Positions 33,310-41,916 of a stretch of DNA of 48,635 nucleotides are shown here, in pieces. The notes under the pieces were generated by a model, which saw nothing but the letters and a program-made list of their open reading frames with translations, ran no database searches and was not told where the DNA came from. The position numbers and the translations under genes are program-made. The stretch is from Candidatus Coproplasma excrementavium. Its GTDB lineage: Bacteria > Bacillota > Clostridia > Christensenellales > Borkfalkiaceae. The DNA is taken from assembly GCA_018715195.1 (NCBI GenBank), contig DVMA01000006.1, forward strand, positions 1-48,635, in the 5' to 3' direction. Each line of letters begins with the position of its first letter. Position 1 is the first letter of the stretch.

Positions 33310-33750
33310 CACATTTTTTTATTGTATTTTTTAATTTGAAAATTATTTATTTATTTTTATAAAGCCGTCATATTTTGCCGACAACGCCCGTATATGCGCG
33401 CATATTAAGCATATGTGCATATATGAAAAAAATAATTAAAAAATTTAATTTGATTCCAACCGCAAAAATAATATTTTTATTTAATTATAATTTTCGAAGA
33501 AAATAAAAACCGCAAAAATTATATCAGACGCAAAATATATTTGCCCGCCGCTTTTTGCGCTGTATGCTCTGCCATTTGGTCATTGCATTTAACTCCCCGC
33601 CTCCGCCGAAAAAAGCATAAGTTTCGTCCGCTGAAGACCTTGGTAAATCTGCCGCAATGCGGAAGTCCGCCGAATAAAACGCCGCAACGGGGCGCATAAT
33701 CAAATACTGCAAACCGCCCGCACGCGGGCGCAAATTACGGAGGTAACATT

Positions 33751-33941: not shown

Positions 33942-33955
33942 TTATCATTTGATAA
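33942..33955. promoter_or_regulatory. Inverted repeat TTATCA-TT-TGATAA, candidate MarR autoregulatory operator
   Basis: Perfect 6-bp arms immediately downstream of the -10 (around +1) and 20 nt before the marR-like start. Confidence 0.5.
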
Positions 33956-33975
33956 GTATTATTCAGGAGGTACCG

Positions 33976-34434
33976 ATGGACAACACGGTAAAAGCCGAGC
34001 AGATTATTTCGCTTATGCTGCGGCTTAAAGACTGTCTGAAAAAGTACTCCCAGCAATGCGGCTGCGGGAAGAACATAATGATACTCGGCAGTCTGTACGA
34101 ATACGAGCGGCGGCTGGGAAGACCTGCAAGCGTATCGGAGATAGCGCACGCCTCGGGGCTGGCTCTGCCGAACGTGAGCAGACTGCTTGTGCCGCTTGAG
34201 CAGGAAGAGCTTATAACGCGCGAAAAAAACGGCAGAAAAGTAAGCGTAATCATCACCGAAAACGGCAGAGAGCGGCTTAAAGAATGCTGGAGCGGACTTG
34301 TATCGCTTATGGCTCTCGCAATTGAAGGGCTGGACCCCGCCGACTGCGAAAATTTTATCAGGACGGGCGGCGAGATTGCGGCATATATTGAGGGCAATTA
34401 CAGAAAAAGCTCTGCGGGAGGCAACGAATGTTAA
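33976..34434 (+). CDS. MarR-family transcriptional regulator
   Basis: Winged-helix segment VSEIAHASGLALPNVSRLLVPLEQEELITREKNGRKVSVIITENG. Start at MDNTVKAEQ behind AGGAGGT. Its stop overlaps the next ATG (ATGTTAA). Confidence 0.85.
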   Translation: MDNTVKAEQIISLMLRLKDCLKKYSQQCGCGKNIMILGSLYEYERRLGRPASVSEIAHASGLALPNVSRLLVPLEQEELITREKNGRKVSVIITENGRERLKECWSGLVSLMALAIEGLDPADCENFIRTGGEIAAYIEGNYRKSSAGGNEC

Positions 34435-36161
34435 GACTTTATAAAAACCTTAAAGCCGCAGACTGGGTGCTTGTTGCGCTGATTTGCGGCATTACGGTTG
34501 CGCAGGTATTTTTCACCCTGCAGCTCACCGACTGCATAGCAGACATCATAGGCGCAATTCAGGCGGTGAGCATGGGCGGTTCTACCGCCGAAATCTGGAA
34601 AAATGGCGGCATAATGCTTGGATATGCGGCGGCCGCGGCGGCGTGCATGGTGGCAACCGGCATTTCCGCATCCAAAGTGGCAAGCACTCTTTCGGCGCGG
34701 CTGAGGAGCAGGGTATATGCAAAAGTGGACAGTTTTTCAATTGCAGAAGTGAACAAATTTTCCACCGCGTCGCTGATTACCCGAACCACCAACGACATAC
34801 AGCAGATACAGCTTGCCAACATACTTATTCTGCGAATGCTTATTTACGCGCCGATAATGGCGATATGGGCGATATGCAAGATAAATGCGTCCAGCGGGGA
34901 ACTTACCGCCGCCACGGCCGTGGCCATAGTAGTGCTGGTTATATGCATAATTGCGCTTATGCTCACGGTTATGCCCAAATTCAGACTCATTCAGAAACTC
35001 ACCGACAAACTCAACGGCGTGACCAGGGAAAACTTAACGGGCATACGCGTGGTGCGTGCATACAACGCCGAGGGTTACCAGCAGGAAAAGTTTGAAAAGG
35101 TGAACGACAAGATTACGAGAACGCAGCTGTTCACGGGCAGAGTGATGTCGCTGATGAACCCGCTGATGATGATTGTAATGAACGGTCTTACGCTTGCGAT
35201 ATACTGGATAGGCGCTTCGCTGATGAATGCGGGCGAGATACAGTACCAGACGATTGTGGCCTTTATGACGCTCGCCTCGCAGGTGGTAATGGCATTCCTC
35301 ATGCTGCTTATGATGTTTGTGCTTATCCCCCGCGCGGAGGTTGCGGCAAGGCGTGTGAACGAAGTGCTGGACACCCCCCTCACCATCGCCGACCCCGAGA
35401 CGGAAAAGCCCTTCACTGAGGAGGGTACGGTGGAATTCAGGAACGTAAGTTTCCGCTATCCCGATGCCGACGCGGACGTGTTCGAGCACATCTCATTCCG
35501 CGCGGAGAAGGGTCAGACGGTTGCCTTTATAGGCAGTACGGGCAGCGGCAAGTCCACCCTTATCAACCTTGTACCCCGCTTTTACGACGCCACCGAGGGC
35601 GAAGTTTTGGTTGACGGCGTGAACGTTAAGGATATGAAACAGAGCACCCTGCGCGACAAGATAGGTTACGTGCCGCAGAAGGGCATACTTTTTACGGGCA
35701 ACGTAGCCGACAACATAGCGTTCGGCGGCAAGGCCGACCGCGCAGATATTGAAAACGCTGCAAAAGTTGCGGAGGCCGACTCATTCATACGCGAGATGGG
35801 CGGTTACGACAGCGCCATTTCGCAGGGCGGCAAGAACGTTTCTGGCGGACAGAAACAGCGCATTTCCATAGCCCGCGCCGTGGCGCAGAAACCCGAGATT
35901 ATGATTTTTGACGACAGTTTTTCGGCGCTGGACTACAAGACGGACAAAAAGGTGCGCGAAAACCTTAAAGAGAGCATGAGCGGCGTGACAAACCTTATCG
36001 TGGCGCAGCGCATAGGCACAATTATGGACGCAGACAAAATTATAGTGCTGGATAACGGCAGGGCCGTGGGCGAGGGTACGCACAGCGAGCTGTTGCAAAG
36101 CTGCCCCGTCTACCGCGAGATTGCGCTTTCGCAGCTTTCAAAGGAGGAACTCGGACTATGA
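34428..36161 (+). CDS. ABC exporter half-transporter (TMD-NBD), degenerate-site subunit
   Basis: Six-TM exporter fold, Walker A GSTGSGKST and signature VSGGQKQRISIARA. Walker B is IMIFDD, so Asp replaces the catalytic Glu. Confidence 0.9.
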   Translation: MLRLYKNLKAADWVLVALICGITVAQVFFTLQLTDCIADIIGAIQAVSMGGSTAEIWKNGGIMLGYAAAAAACMVATGISASKVASTLSARLRSRVYAKVDSFSIAEVNKFSTASLITRTTNDIQQIQLANILILRMLIYAPIMAIWAICKINASSGELTAATAVAIVVLVICIIALMLTVMPKFRLIQKLTDKLNGVTRENLTGIRVVRAYNAEGYQQEKFEKVNDKITRTQLFTGRVMSLMNPLMMIVMNGLTLAIYWIGASLMNAGEIQYQTIVAFMTLASQVVMAFLMLLMMFVLIPRAEVAARRVNEVLDTPLTIADPETEKPFTEEGTVEFRNVSFRYPDADADVFEHISFRAEKGQTVAFIGSTGSGKSTLINLVPRFYDATEGEVLVDGVNVKDMKQSTLRDKIGYVPQKGILFTGNVADNIAFGGKADRADIENAAKVAEADSFIREMGGYDSAISQGGKNVSGGQKQRISIARAVAQKPEIMIFDDSFSALDYKTDKKVRENLKESMSGVTNLIVAQRIGTIMDADKIIVLDNGRAVGEGTHSELLQSCPVYREIALSQLSKEELGL

Positions 36162-37948
36162 GACCTTCATTCAATTCGGGCGAAAAGCTTAAAAAGGGCG
36201 AATTCAGCAAGAACATAAAAAAGCTTGCAAAGTTCATGCGGCCGTACTATATACCCATAGCAGTCGCGCTGGTATTCACGATAGCGGCAACGGTGCTGTC
36301 CATATTTGCGCCGCAGATACTTTCCGACCTGGTTAACGTTATAACGGCAAGCTTTATGGCTCCGCCCATAAATATGAGCGAGCTTGCCCGCTTCGGCGTG
36401 ATACTTATAATCTTTTATGTATGCAACGCGGTATGCACATACGTATCGGGCTTTATAATGACGACCATTTCGCAGCGCATGTGCAAGAATCTGCGCACGC
36501 AGATTTCCGAAAAGATAAACAGAGTGCCGCTCAGGTACTTCGACTCCCACCCCTACGGCGACACGCTCTCGCGCGTTACCAACGATGTGGACACGATAGG
36601 CAACTCAATGCAGCAGGCGGTATCGATGGTGGTACAGTCGGCGTGCATGCTTACGGGCGTACTCATCGCAATGTTCGTGACGAGCTGGCAGCTTGCGCTC
36701 ACCGTACTCATAATAGTGCCCTTTATGGCCGTACTGCTGTTTGTGATAATGAAGTTTTCACAGCCTCAGTTCAGAAAGCAGCAGGACGAACTGGCCGTGC
36801 TCAACGGAAAGGTTGAAGAGAACTATTCGGGGCATATGGTGATAAAGGCGTTCAACGCCGAAGCGCTCACCAATGCCGACTTTGAATCTTCCAACGCAAG
36901 GCTGAAAAAGAGCACCTTCCTCTCGCAGGCGCTTTCGGGCATAATGATGCCTGCGATGACGTTCATTTCCTACTTTGCCTACGCCGCGGTATGCGTGGTT
37001 GCGGGCATAATGATTGCGGGAAAGGACGGCGGCGTGACTTACGGCACGCTTACGGCGTTCCTTGTATACGTAAACCTGTTCCAGAGTCCCCTTTCGCAGA
37101 TAGCGCAGGCGGCAAACGTACTTCAGAGCGCGGCGGCAGCCAGCGGGCGCGTGTTCGACTTCCTTGAAGAGAGCGAACTCAGCGACGAGAGCAACAAGCC
37201 ACGTCTGCTTGAAAACGGCGTGCGCGGCGAAGTGGAATTCAGACACGTACGCTTCGGCTACGACGAAGACAGAATTATAATACCCGACTTTTCGGCAAAA
37301 ATTCAACCCGGCTGGAAGGTGGCGATTGTCGGACCCACGGGCGCGGGCAAGACCACTATGGTAAACCTTCTGATGCGCTTTTACGAGGTAAACAGCGGCG
37401 ACATTTTAATTGACGGCGTATCGGTAAAGGATATGTCCCGCGAGGAAGTGCACGACCTGTTCGGAATGGTTCTGCAGGACACCTGGATGTTTGAAGGCAC
37501 CCTGCGCGAGAACATAGTATATTCCAAGACAGCCACCGAAGAACAACTTAAAAAGGTATGCGAGGCGGCGGGCATTTCGCACTACATTGCAACGCAACCT
37601 GGCGGACTGGACCACTACGTTGAAAACGGCGACGAAATTTCGGGCGGACAGAAACAGCTGATAACCATTGCAAGAGCCATGATTGAAAACGCGCCCATGC
37701 TTATACTGGACGAGGCGACCTCCAACGTGGATACGCGCACCGAGGAGCTAATTCAGACGGCTATGGATGCGCTCACCCGCGGCAGAACGAGCTTTGTTAT
37801 AGCTCACAGACTTTCCACCATAAAGAACGCCGACCTTATACTTGTAATGGACCACGGCAACATTGTGGAGCAGGGCACGCACGAACAGCTGATTGAAAAG
37901 GACGGTTTCTACGCAAAGTTATACAACTCGCAGTTTGCGGGAGAATAA
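36158..37948 (+). CDS. ABC exporter half-transporter (TMD-NBD), consensus-site subunit
   Basis: Walker A GPTGAGKTT, signature ISGGQKQLITIARA, canonical Walker B LILDE. There is a 4-nt overlap with the upstream gene. Confidence 0.9.
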   Translation: MRPSFNSGEKLKKGEFSKNIKKLAKFMRPYYIPIAVALVFTIAATVLSIFAPQILSDLVNVITASFMAPPINMSELARFGVILIIFYVCNAVCTYVSGFIMTTISQRMCKNLRTQISEKINRVPLRYFDSHPYGDTLSRVTNDVDTIGNSMQQAVSMVVQSACMLTGVLIAMFVTSWQLALTVLIIVPFMAVLLFVIMKFSQPQFRKQQDELAVLNGKVEENYSGHMVIKAFNAEALTNADFESSNARLKKSTFLSQALSGIMMPAMTFISYFAYAAVCVVAGIMIAGKDGGVTYGTLTAFLVYVNLFQSPLSQIAQAANVLQSAAAASGRVFDFLEESELSDESNKPRLLENGVRGEVEFRHVRFGYDEDRIIIPDFSAKIQPGWKVAIVGPTGAGKTTMVNLLMRFYEVNSGDILIDGVSVKDMSREEVHDLFGMVLQDTWMFEGTLRENIVYSKTATEEQLKKVCEAAGISHYIATQPGGLDHYVENGDEISGGQKQLITIARAMIENAPMLILDEATSNVDTRTEELIQTAMDALTRGRTSFVIAHRLSTIKNADLILVMDHGNIVEQGTHEQLIEKDGFYAKLYNSQFAGE

Positions 37949-38044
37949 AGTTTATGAGGCGTCCGCAGAGAGAGCGGGCATGCGGTAATTTTACCGCTGC
38001 GCGGGCGCAATTCATAATTTCCGTGCCTTATCGGTGCGGAAGGG

Positions 38045-38079
38045 GCCGCCGCGGCAAAAGCCGCGGCGGCTCTTTTTTT
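38045..38079 (+). terminator. Intrinsic terminator of the MarR/ABC operon
   Basis: Perfect 11-bp stem GCCGCCGCGGC / GCCGCGGCGGC with loop AAAA, followed by TCTTTTTTTA. Confidence 0.9.
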
Positions 38080-38298
38080 ATCGCTTTTCCACAGTTATTT
38101 TGTCGGATTTTGACAAATTAAAGAAAAAGCCGTCGGAAAAGCCGGGTAATTTATATGCGGCGCGGCGCACATATCCACAGTGCTCTCCGCCTTTTCCACC
38201 ATACGCCCGCCACCGCCGAAGGGGAGGAGGAGAGCCTATTTTGCCGCCAAAACACATATCTGCCGCGGCGCATATAGGGCTCAACCGCCGCAAACACG

Positions 38299-38362
38299 CA
38301 TATATATTTTTTTACATATATTTCTTAGCGCATATTATTTTTAACGCATATAAAAATTTGAT
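38299..38362. repeat. Four head-to-tail 16-bp AT-rich units starting with CATAT
   Basis: CATATATATTTTTTTA (38299), CATATATTTCTTAGCG (38315), CATATTATTTTTAACG (38331), CATATAAAAATTTGAT (38347). They form the core of a larger CATATG-rich gene-free array (see findings). Confidence 0.7.
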
Positions 38363-38778
38363 TTTTAATATATCCATTCATATGCGTGCCCCTCCACTTT
38401 TTACATATTGCATATGCATTAAACGGCAACCATAATTTTTTTCGCATATGCGTGTAAAAAACAGATTTTTTTACAATATGTGCACCGCCGTTTATATGCC
38501 CTCCTCCGCCGCCGATAATTTTGCCGCGACAGATGATATGCGCCGCAACAAATCTGCGGTAATTGCCACATATATGCCACCGTTTTGCCGCGACCCGTCA
38601 TATGCCGCGGGCAATATATGCGTACCTTTTAATATTGTATTTCACACATATCACCCGCCGATAATATCAGCCGCAAAACATATGCATTGCGGCGGCAAAA
38701 AGGCTTATTTTATGCAATAAGACGCACATTACGCATATGACAGAAAACACGAAAAAATTACATAATTTTTTAGGTAAT

Positions 38779-38813
38779 AAAAAAAACGGAGGAAGCGATT
38801 TTTTGCTCCTCCG
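38779..38813 (-). terminator. Intrinsic terminator of the 86-aa gene
   Basis: Minus strand reads CGGAGGAGC-AAAAAATC-GCTTCCTCCG (one bulged base) followed by TTTTTTTTATT. Confidence 0.8.
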
Positions 38814-41698: not shown

Positions 41699-41916
41699 TT
41701 TCATACCCTCCCCCGCTCGCCGCGGGAAATGGCGGCTTTCTGCCGCCTTATTACAAATATTTGCGACATATGTGCCGCTGTTTTTACTGCGGGCGACACA
41801 TATACGCTTTGAAAGTCACTTTATTTAAGTCGCCGCGCGCAAGCTGCGCAAGTAAAAGAATGCAAAATAAGTCCGACAGCATTGAATGGCACATATATGG
41901 CACCCAATGCCAAAAA

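What the first reader, a model, noticed from the sequence alone, without database searches (positions are those of the whole stretch)
38081..38760. About 700-bp gene-free array of phased CATATG-type motifs plus three DnaA-box-like 9-mers between two converging terminators
No SD-preceded ORF is present. I count 21 CATAT/ATATG cores in about 590 bp (38153-38738), mostly as (G)CATATG(C). Only a few would be expected by chance. Four units are strictly head-to-tail with a 16-bp period (38299, 38315, 38331, 38347), and many later cores fall at roughly 16- or 32-bp steps, which suggests phased A/T tracts. TTTTGCCGC occurs three times, 8-11 nt upstream of a CATAT/ATATG core (38239, 38519, 38583). The last two share TTTTGCCGCGAC exactly 64 bp apart. 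Imperfect palindromes of the form ATATGC-(GC-rich)-GCAnATAT lie at 38153-38174, 38255-38275 and 38599-38620. Immediately after the ABC terminator there are three same-orientation DnaA-box-like 9-mers. TTTTCCACA (38085-38093) fits TTWTNCACA. ATATCCACA (38171-38179) and TTTTCCACC (38192-38200) each have one mismatch. The architecture of protein-box cluster plus AT-rich tandem repeats resembles an iteron/DUE-type element or a dense binding array for a palindrome-recognising protein. I cannot assign it.
Basis: seen in the sequence. Interest (0 to 1): 0.62.

Follow-up and report, generated by a model that had tools for sequence, protein, structure and literature searches.

The report
Conserved 16-bp lattice of CATATG sites
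A gene-free spacer in an uncultured chicken-gut Clostridia bacterium carries about 22 copies of the short palindrome CATATG spaced in steps of 16 bp. Related species keep the same sites and spacing at the same place, so it is most likely a docking platform for an unidentified DNA-binding protein and not a replication origin.

Summary
Window 38140-38745 holds 22 CATAT/ATATG cores, about 5 times the composition-matched expectation and about 30 times the window background for the 7-mer ATATGYG. Their mutual distances fall on multiples of 16 bp (p < 2e-4).

The array is not a feature of this one genome. Ten species of the same uncultured Clostridia lineage (Candidatus Coproplasma-like) that keep spoIVA next to the MarR-ABC exporter operon all carry such an array in that spacer. 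Three relatives that lack this gene junction have none.

In a four-species alignment the cores are 71% invariant against 22% for the DNA between them. Indels are almost absent inside the array, although the flanks at the same identity are full of gaps. Strain SNPs also avoid the cores. Sites, spacing and a mirror-symmetric layout are therefore under selection.

There is no Rfam hit, no conserved sigma-70 promoter, a low structure-conservation index and no conserved ORF.

The DnaA-like 9-mers are not significantly clustered and are absent from 6 of 10 arrays. I see no skew or gene-strand switch, no dnaA and no Rep gene.

Best reading: a cooperative protein-binding lattice on DNA. The protein and its purpose are unknown.

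The parts
38040..38079 (+). Intrinsic terminator of the MarR-ABC exporter operon (16-nt arms plus a T7 run). It forms the left boundary of the spacer.
   Evidence: I13; sequence
38085..38200 (+). Three DnaA-box-like 9-mers (38085 TTTTCCACA, 38171 ATATCCACA, 38192 TTTTCCACC). GGTGGAAAA and TGTGGATAT are conserved in W, L015 and L016 only.
   Evidence: not a significant or general feature
38140..38745 (.). The array: 22 CATAT/ATATG cores with consensus R-C-A-T-A-T-G-Y-(G), placed on a 16-bp lattice with a few conserved off-lattice steps (34 and 42 bp).
38239..38275 (.). Left arm of the long inverted repeat (TTTTGCCGCC...GCGCATAT). It pairs with 38664-38700.
   Evidence: I1: 37 nt, 73% complementary; conserved in four species (columns 250-270 with 692-712)
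38170..38351 (+). Left block: seven half-sites, all in the CRCATAT orientation. It includes the AT-rich 16-bp tandem run at 38296-38352.
38410..38452 (.). Centre of symmetry: two full palindromes, GCATATGC (38410-38417) and CGCATATGCG (38443-38452), 34 bp apart inside the 26.5% GC core. Both are invariant in four species.
38476..38740 (+). Right block: half-sites mostly in the ATATGYG orientation, plus full palindromes at 38599, 38679 and 38734. It contains the phased run 38600-38680.
38664..38700 (.). Right arm of the long inverted repeat (ATATCAGCCGC...GGCGGCAAAA).
38213..38237 (+). Purine-rich GGAGG block, complementary to the CCTCC block at 38494-38512. Both are present, with species-specific spelling, in W, L015, L016 and L018.
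   Evidence: I16
38792..38809 (-). Terminator of the 86-aa membrane-protein gene. It forms the right boundary of the spacer.
33369..33425 (.). Small off-lattice cluster of the same motif far upstream of the MarR-ABC operon. It is not conserved in relatives.

Best explanation
The spacer is a cis-acting DNA element: a lattice of binding sites for a sequence-specific, probably dimeric (helix-turn-helix or winged-helix type) DNA-binding protein.

**How it would work.** The protein reads the palindrome RCATATGY. Neighbouring copies sit exactly 16 bp apart (1.5 helical turns, so on alternate faces of the helix), which would let them bind cooperatively. The sites form two blocks of opposite polarity around a pair of full palindromes and are bracketed by the inverted pair TTTTGCCGC / GCGGCAAAA. 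The loaded element would therefore be a large, two-fold symmetric nucleoprotein complex of up to about 20 dimers.

**Where it sits.** It lies between the terminators of two converging transcription units (the MarR-ABC exporter operon and the 86-aa gene/spoIVA), not in front of any gene. It goes with the spoIVA-ABC junction in every species that has that junction.

**Shown here:** the motif, its 16-bp phasing, its mirror layout, and purifying selection on sites and spacing across ten species and within two species.

**Inferred:** that the selective agent is a DNA-binding protein. Also inferred is what the complex does. Candidates are a local insulator or roadblock between the converging genes, a reservoir that titrates a regulator, or a chromosome-organising anchor. 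The protein is not identified.
For: **Enrichment and phasing**
- The cores are enriched about 5-fold over composition, and ATATGYG about 30-fold over the window.
- Distances between cores pooled over nine of the orthologous arrays peak sharply at 16, 32, 48, 64 and 80 bp, with counts of 20, 20, 14, 17 and 14 against 1-5 at the neighbouring distances. L146, fetched later, shows the same 16-bp steps.
- In the window alone, 27 pairs lie on the lattice against 4.2 expected.

**Conservation across species**
- The array is present in all 10 species that keep spoIVA next to the ABC operon, down to 50% SpoIVA identity. Density there is 11-40 cores/kb against 1.5-4.4/kb in the rest of each locus.
- It is absent downstream of spoIVA in L002, L014 and L147, which lack the ABC neighbour.
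- In the four-species alignment A3, core columns are 71% invariant against 22% for non-core columns. In the three short arrays (A2) the figures are 88% against 50%.
- The array core has 13 gapped columns in 463. The flanks, at the same pairwise identity of 0.53-0.57, have 48-71% gapped columns.
- The off-lattice steps of 42 and 34 bp are also the same in all four species.

**Within species**
- Strain variation in two species gives 31 variable positions in the arrays, of which 1 is in a core (about 5 expected; binomial p = 0.02). There are no gains or losses of repeat units.

**DNA-level symmetry**
- The consensus is symmetric and both strands fold equally 'well'.
- The inverted pair TTTTGCCGC/GCGGCAAAA and the orientation pattern of half-sites are shared by four species.

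**Literature leads (not tests)**
- PadR-family winged-helix dimers bind ATGT-N8-ACAT. This is a 16-bp dyad that, laid end to end, gives exactly ACATATGT every 16 bp. LmrR, a PadR protein, controls the LmrCD-type heterodimeric ABC exporter (PMC5050560, PMC3506622).
- A C. difficile XRE-family regulator is reported to bind GCATATGCACCACC (PMC13260099).
Against: - No binding protein is identified. The only regulator in the neighbourhood is a generic MarR/ArsR-like winged-helix protein. Its likely operator is a different, conserved palindrome, TTATCA-TT-TGATAA, at the operon promoter.
- No PadR or XRE gene lies in the window.
- The position between two 3' ends is unusual for operators, so the purpose of the complex is guesswork.
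- A low level of RNA-library coverage over the array cannot be excluded as real transcription.
- I could not tell whether the bound unit is centred on CATATG or on the spacer between two CATATG.
Confidence: 0.55

Rival explanations
1. The spacer encodes a non-coding RNA, either a long structured RNA or a protein 'sponge' with many CAUAUG motifs. In this reading the self-complementary hexamers and the long inverted repeat are RNA helices.
For: - The spoIVA-sense strand folds at -224.6 kcal/mol, z = -5.0.
- RNAalifold finds nested long-range helices kept in four species, with a few two-sided changes such as columns 291/684 (GC in two species, CG in two).
- The consensus energy is far below that of column-shuffled alignments.
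- Contigs of one cDNA library (X27) cover parts of the array at depth 3-4.
Against: - No Rfam family matches at E <= 1 except chance hits on the terminator.
- There is no conserved sigma-70-type promoter, and promoter-like sites are fewer than in shuffles in L016 and L018.
- The array is fenced by terminators pointing inward on both sides.
- The structure conservation index is only 0.33 and 0.23. Both strands give the same signal, as expected for DNA palindromes.
- Degenerate sites show no G-U-type bias.
- The covariation term is only -2.2 kcal/mol.
- Exact conservation of CATATG itself, with no compensatory variants, points to sequence readout.
- RNA-library depth over the array is 5-8 times lower than over spoIVA and similar to the weakly covered ABC genes, and the contigs carry no direction.
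Confidence: 0.12
2. It is an origin-type element: iterons plus DnaA boxes plus an AT-rich unwinding region. It could be the chromosomal origin, a DnaA-titrating cluster, or the origin of an integrated replicon.
For: - The long arrays have a 26.5% GC centre and one to three DnaA-like 9-mers. L016 has one perfect TTATCCACA.
- Full palindromes plus runs of half-sites in direct orientation recall iteron replicons, where initiator dimers bind inverted repeats and monomers bind direct iterons (established knowledge).
- An unrelated phage contig (L023 7000-7160) has about eight TTAGGCATATGAGG repeats, mostly at a 16-bp period, followed by two perfect DnaA boxes.
Against: - DnaA-like boxes are absent from 6 of 10 orthologous arrays and are not significantly clustered in the window.
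- The short arrays (247-291 bp, GC 0.50-0.60) have no AT-rich segment.
- There is no dnaA, dnaN or Rep gene in 48.6 kb.
- Genes converge on the array, where at an origin they would diverge. GC skew follows gene strand and shows no turning point at 38 kb.
- There is no similarity to plasmids or phages.
Confidence: 0.06
3. It is selfish or neutral repeat DNA: a REP/BIME-like or MITE-like palindromic element, or a decaying 16-bp tandem repeat, that lodged between two converging genes.
For: - It sits between converging 3' ends, as BIMEs often do.
- It has an inverted-repeat outline of 462 bp with TIR-like ends.
- Array length varies from about 150 to about 900 bp among species.
- Isolated GC-rich hairpins with ATAT loops occur in other spacers.
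Against: - It is single-copy in the window and in 215 kb of clade DNA.
- It sits at the same locus in ten species and has diverged along with them.
- Cores are conserved while spacers are not, indels are suppressed, and SNPs avoid the cores. A decaying repeat would lose all positions alike.
- There is no unit-number variation among strains.
Confidence: 0.1
4. It is an epigenetic mark cluster. CATATG would be the target of a DNA methyltransferase, and the array a dense patch of methylation sites read by a methylation-sensitive protein, in analogy with GATC clusters bound by SeqA or GANTC clusters in Alphaproteobacteria.
For: - The core is a 6-bp palindrome of the kind type II methyltransferases recognise.
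- It is extremely clustered and conserved.
- CATATG is not avoided in genes, with 80 observed against about 30 expected from composition. That is compatible with an orphan methylase and not a restriction system.
Against: - No methyltransferase gene was seen near the array in any locus.
- Conservation extends to the flanking R/Y and G positions and to the exact 16-bp spacing, which a methylase alone does not require.
- There are no methylation data.
- This is really a sub-case of the main explanation.
Confidence: 0.08

Closest known systems
Phage and plasmid iteron origins (ori lambda: four palindromic 19-bp O-protein sites beside an AT-rich region; RK2, R6K and pPS10 iterons)
   Same: A regular array of short protein-binding repeats, with full palindromes and direct half-site runs side by side. 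The long versions also have an AT-rich segment and a few DnaA-like boxes.
   Different: The period is 16 bp, not about 22 bp. There is no initiator gene. It is chromosomal, single-locus and syntenic in ten species. Short GC-rich versions lack any unwinding region. It lies between converging 3' ends.
Plasmid centromeres made of iterated short sites (R1 parC/ParR, pSK41 parC, tubC/TubR, omega-protein heptads of pSM19035)
   Same: Many closely packed short sites in two blocks. Cooperative coating by small dimeric proteins yields one large nucleoprotein complex.
   Different: No ParM/ParA/TubZ-type partition gene is adjacent. The motif and period differ. These are plasmid or phage elements, whereas this one is on a chromosome.
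PadR-family operators ATGT-N8-ACAT (PadR, LmrR of the lmrCD ABC exporter)
   Same: A 16-bp dyad that begins with ATG and ends with CAT. Placed end to end it yields RCATATGY every 16 bp. The neighbour is an LmrCD-like heterodimeric ABC exporter (PMC5050560, PMC3506622).
   Different: Known PadR operators are one or two sites in a promoter. This is up to 22 sites behind the operon. GCAT/ATGC is commoner here than ACAT/ATGT. No PadR gene is in the window.
REP/BIME elements of enterobacteria
   Same: Palindromic units in alternating orientation, clustered between converging genes. They bind host proteins (gyrase, IHF).
   Different: REPs are multi-copy, mobile and species-specific. This array is single-copy in all DNA examined, and its sites are conserved at one orthologous locus.
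Replication terminus of Bacillus subtilis (RTP on Ter sites, inverted repeats IRI/IRII)
   Same: Winged-helix dimers on adjoining 16-bp sites arranged in two groups of opposite polarity (established knowledge).
   Different: The sequence is unrelated. The 48-kb window shows no change of skew or gene strand, so the locus does not look like a terminus.

Membership tests
Bacterial chromosomal origin (oriC) | Cluster of DnaA boxes (TTATCCACA-like) above background | tested here: not met
   Two or three one-mismatch boxes against 14 spread over the window (6.6 expected). None in 6 of 10 orthologous arrays.
Bacterial chromosomal origin (oriC) | AT-rich DNA-unwinding element | tested here: inconclusive
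   There is a 26.5% GC core in the window, but the orthologous short arrays have GC 0.50-0.60 with no AT-rich part.
Bacterial chromosomal origin (oriC) | Turning point of GC skew and of gene orientation; usually next to dnaA | tested here: not met
   Within the 48.6-kb window there is no turning point, genes converge on the array, and there is no dnaA.
Iteron-type plasmid or phage origin | Adjacent gene for the iteron-binding initiator | tested here: not met
   The neighbours are an ABC exporter, an 86-aa membrane protein and SpoIVA. There is no similarity to plasmids or phages.
Iteron-type plasmid or phage origin | Directly repeated 17-22-bp iterons on a period of about two helical turns | tested here: not met
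   The period is 16 bp and the units are mostly palindromic.
REP/BIME or MITE repeat families | Many dispersed copies in the genome | tested here: not met
   No second copy in the window or in 215 kb of clade loci. The complete genome was not testable.
Known RNA families (Rfam 15) | Match to a covariance model at or near the gathering score | tested here: not met
   Best hit 31.5 bits against a gathering score of 114, and it lies on the terminator hairpin.
PadR-type operator | Dyad ATGT-N8-ACAT | tested here: inconclusive
   Every pair spaced 16 bp apart gives ATGY-N8-RCAT. However, Y is C in 56% of sites and R is split evenly between G and A. The same pattern also fits a dimer centred on CATATG.
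PadR-type operator | PadR-family gene nearby and a promoter location | tested here: not met
   There is no PF03551 hit. The local regulator is MarR/ArsR-like. The array lies behind the operon.
Protein-coding gene | Conserved open reading frame | tested here: not met
   The ORFs in the array differ in strand and length between species, and their products are unrelated. A 16-bp period is not a multiple of three.

The most novel reading that the evidence does not exclude
The lattice is the loading site of an undescribed chromosome-level nucleoprotein complex in Coproplasma-like Clostridia. An unknown dimeric protein would coat two mirror-image arms of up to about 10 sites each at 16-bp steps and fold them into one particle. 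That particle could act as a barrier or insulator between converging transcription units, as a polar replication-fork or transcription roadblock, or as an anchor for the chromosome during sporulation. This would be a chromosomal counterpart of plasmid centromeres, with its own motif and geometry.
Probability: 0.2. Interest if true: 0.75.

Novelty: new variant of a known kind. Interest (0 to 1): 0.5.

Why it matters
Phased arrays of protein sites are known mainly from plasmid and phage origins and centromeres, and from promoters. This one does not fit those settings. It is chromosomal, lies between two gene ends, and is kept at one locus across a whole lineage of uncultured gut Clostridia. Selection acts on site sequence, on exact 16-bp spacing and on mirror symmetry.

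The element gives a clean bait for finding a new DNA-binding protein and its mode of cooperative assembly. It also shows that such elements can be found from raw sequence by comparing syntenic spacers.

If the element turns out to be only a regulator reservoir for the neighbouring exporter, the interest is modest. If it organises the chromosome or blocks polymerases, it would be a new kind of bacterial cis-element.

Tried and rejected

**Metagenome and viral scans.**
- My first viral scan used a pattern that was off by one base. It nevertheless turned up the phage contig L023, which has CATATG iterons.

**A genome-wide regulatory motif?** The isolated GCCGCATATGCGGC-type sites in other spacers are GC hairpins with ATAT loops just behind stop codons. 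They are not conserved in position, and CATATG is not enriched in other intergenic DNA. Rejected.

**Looping between the array and the small cluster upstream of the operon?** That cluster is off-lattice and not conserved. Rejected.

**Other motif families.**
- Sigma-54 or sigma-E/K promoter readings of the motif: the spacings do not fit, and a sigma-54-like match in the window is not conserved (by eye).
- The NrdR box, LexA box and BlaI/MecI box compared from memory: the half-sites differ.
- Canonical parS: none found.

**RNA libraries.** The contigs have no direction and coverage is low and patchy, so they settle nothing.

**Literature.** Searches for GCATATGC and ACATATGT gave only one weak lead, Xtr of C. 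difficile.

Full report
**What is there**

The region lies between the intrinsic terminator of a MarR-like regulator plus heterodimeric ABC exporter operon (33949-37948, + strand; terminator 38040-38079) and the terminator (38809-38792) of an 86-aa membrane-protein gene. That gene is followed by an N-terminally short spoIVA, both on the - strand.

Between 38140 and 38745 I count 28 overlapping CATAT/ATATG pentamers, which make 22 separate cores. A first-order Markov model of the same region predicts 5.6 +/- 2.5. The longer half-site ATATGYG occurs 16 times against 1.25 expected, about 30 times the density in the rest of the window.

Oriented on ATATG, the consensus over 167 pentamer occurrences (a full CATATG counts once per strand) from nine of the orthologous arrays is R-C-ATATG-Y-G-(T). 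That is the palindrome RCATATGY with weaker outer positions.

- the four 16-bp units at 38299-38347
- the three TTTTGCCGC copies
- the GC-centred imperfect palindromes
- the three DnaA-like 9-mers

**Phasing**

The array is a lattice. In the window, 27 pairs of cores lie at multiples of 16 bp (up to 96 bp), against 4.2 +/- 2.0 for random placement. No other period between 9 and 25 bp stands out. Pooled over nine of the orthologous arrays, the pairwise distances peak at exactly 16, 32, 48, 64 and 80 bp.

The half-sites are polar:
- On the + strand the left block (38170-38347) is all CRCATAT.
- The right block is mostly ATATGYG.
- Two full palindromes (38410, 38443) sit at the centre, in a 26.5% GC core.
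- A 37-nt inverted repeat (38239-38275 with 38664-38700, ends TTTTGCCGC / GCGGCAAAA) brackets the whole.

**Relatives**

The organism is an uncultured chicken-gut member of the Clostridia. The ABC protein is 85% identical to one from Candidatus Coproplasma avistercoris.

Using the short SpoIVA as a marker, I fetched syntenic loci from species with 50-72% SpoIVA identity. Every species that keeps spoIVA next to the ABC operon has a dense CATATG array in that spacer. These are the window plus L001, L015, L016, L017, L018, L019, L020, L021 and L146. Density is 11-40 cores/kb against 1.5-4.4/kb in the rest of each locus, while the spacer varies from 247 to 1619 bp.

The three species in which spoIVA has another neighbour (L002, L014, L147) have no array there.

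In 215 kb of clade DNA, 22 of 23 pairs spaced 16 bp apart lie in this spacer. BLAST finds no second copy.

CATATG is not enriched in other intergenic DNA of the clade.

**Selection**

The arrays of the window, L015, L016 and L018 align over about 700 bp. Columns belonging to cores are 71% invariant and the others 22%. For the three short arrays the figures are 88% and 50%.

The array core (463 columns) has only 13 gapped columns. The flanks, at the same pairwise identity (0.53-0.57), are 48-71% gapped. The off-lattice steps of 42 and 34 bp are also identical in four species.

Among strains of two species there are 31 variable positions in the arrays, one in a core (about five expected, p = 0.02). 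No unit is gained or lost.

Site sequence, spacing and the mirror layout are thus maintained by selection. This excludes a decaying tandem repeat and argues against a selfish repeat.

**DNA or RNA, coding or not**

- No conserved ORF exists.
- Rfam gives nothing.
- No sigma-70-type promoter is conserved, and the array is closed by terminators on both sides.
- Single sequences fold well (z = -5.0 and -2.6). The consensus energy beats column shuffles on both strands alike. However, the structure conservation index is only 0.33 and 0.23, and covariation is slight.
- Degenerate sites show no wobble-type bias.
- One cDNA library covers parts of the array at a depth similar to the poorly covered ABC genes and 5-8 times below spoIVA. 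The contigs carry no direction, and DNA carry-over cannot be excluded.

I therefore read the element as acting at the DNA level and give an RNA role about 0.12.

**Origin?**

The DnaA-like 9-mers are not a significant cluster (14 one-mismatch matches over the window, 6.6 expected). One of them overlaps a lattice core. Six of the ten arrays have none.

The short arrays are GC-rich and have no unwinding region. The window has no dnaA, dnaN or rep gene. Genes converge on the array, and GC skew simply follows gene strand. There is no similarity to plasmids or phages.

A phage contig (L023) does carry about eight TTAGGCATATGAGG repeats, mostly at a 16-bp period, next to two perfect DnaA boxes. CATATG iterons therefore exist in origin-like settings, but that element is unrelated in sequence and context. 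I give the origin reading about 0.06.

**Mechanism proposed**

A dimeric sequence-specific protein reads RCATATGY and binds cooperatively every 16 bp, on alternate faces of the helix. It builds a two-fold symmetric complex on the two arms. Two parses are possible and could not be separated.

- **Dimer centred on each CATATG.**
- **Dimer centred on the spacer.** Here the dimer binds the 16-bp dyad ATGY-N8-RCAT between two cores. This is the published format of PadR-family operators (ATGT-N8-ACAT), including LmrR, the regulator of an LmrCD-type ABC exporter like the one next door (PMC5050560, PMC3506622).

This is a lead only. The local regulator is MarR/ArsR-like, and its likely operator is the conserved TTATCA-TT-TGATAA at the operon promoter. 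A C. difficile XRE regulator reported to bind GCATATGCACCACC is a second lead (PMC13260099).

What the complex does is inferred, not shown. Candidates are insulation or a roadblock between converging units, regulator titration, or chromosome anchoring.

**Verdict**

The element is a new variant of a known kind (phased protein-site arrays) in an unusual, conserved chromosomal setting. Interest is moderate (0.5), and it would be higher if a structural or barrier role is shown.

Noticed in passing
L147 7700-7910: In a relative where spoIVA is not next to the ABC operon, a tight cluster of DnaA boxes lies about 700 bp downstream of spoIVA. It has two perfect TTATCCACA and four one-mismatch boxes within 200 bp, sits beside two ~200-bp direct repeats, and is followed by an XRE-type HTH gene. 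It could be a real DnaA-binding cluster or an origin.
   Followed up: partly
L023 7000-7160 (IMG/VR contig): A GC-rich phage contig carries about eight TTAGGCATATGAGG repeats, mostly at a 16-bp period, followed by two perfect DnaA boxes (TGTGGATAA). They lie between an AAA-ATPase gene (phrog_10440) and small ORFs. This looks like a phage origin built on CATATG iterons.
   Followed up: partly
window, whole length: All 14 matches to TTATCCACA with at most one mismatch lie on the + strand and none on the - strand. This is a striking strand bias, unexplained here.
   Followed up: no
window 36158-37948: The second ABC subunit is 84-87% identical across species whose SpoIVA is only 56-67% identical. 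This exporter is unusually constrained for a presumed multidrug pump.
   Followed up: no
window 37949-38020: Just behind the ABC stop codon and before the terminator lies a conserved non-coding block (...GCGG-AAAATTACCGCAT-CCGC...). It is kept in the window, L015, L016, L017, L018 and L020. Function unknown.
   Followed up: no
window 33942-33955: The palindrome TTATCA-TT-TGATAA, just downstream of the -10 box of the MarR-ABC promoter, is conserved in the five relatives in which the promoter region was read (L015, L016, L017, L019, L021). It is the likely operator of the MarR-like regulator.
   Followed up: partly
window 4742, 5956, 8574, 21950, 41768-41890, 44543, 48598: GC-rich hairpin palindromes with an ATAT or ATATAT centre (such as GGCGGCACATATGTGCCGCC) recur in intergenic DNA, often just behind stop codons. 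They share the CATATG centre with the array but are not on a lattice and are not conserved in position.
   Followed up: partly
L002 880-960: A tandem duplication of about 34 bp (TAAAGGGGATACCCCACACCGTGCCCCCCTTGTG) lies downstream of spoIVA in the closest relative that lacks the ABC neighbour.
   Followed up: no
L020 8770-9260: In this species the array consists almost only of full CATATG palindromes at about 31-34-bp steps, not 16-bp steps. This is a double-period variant of the lattice.
   Followed up: no
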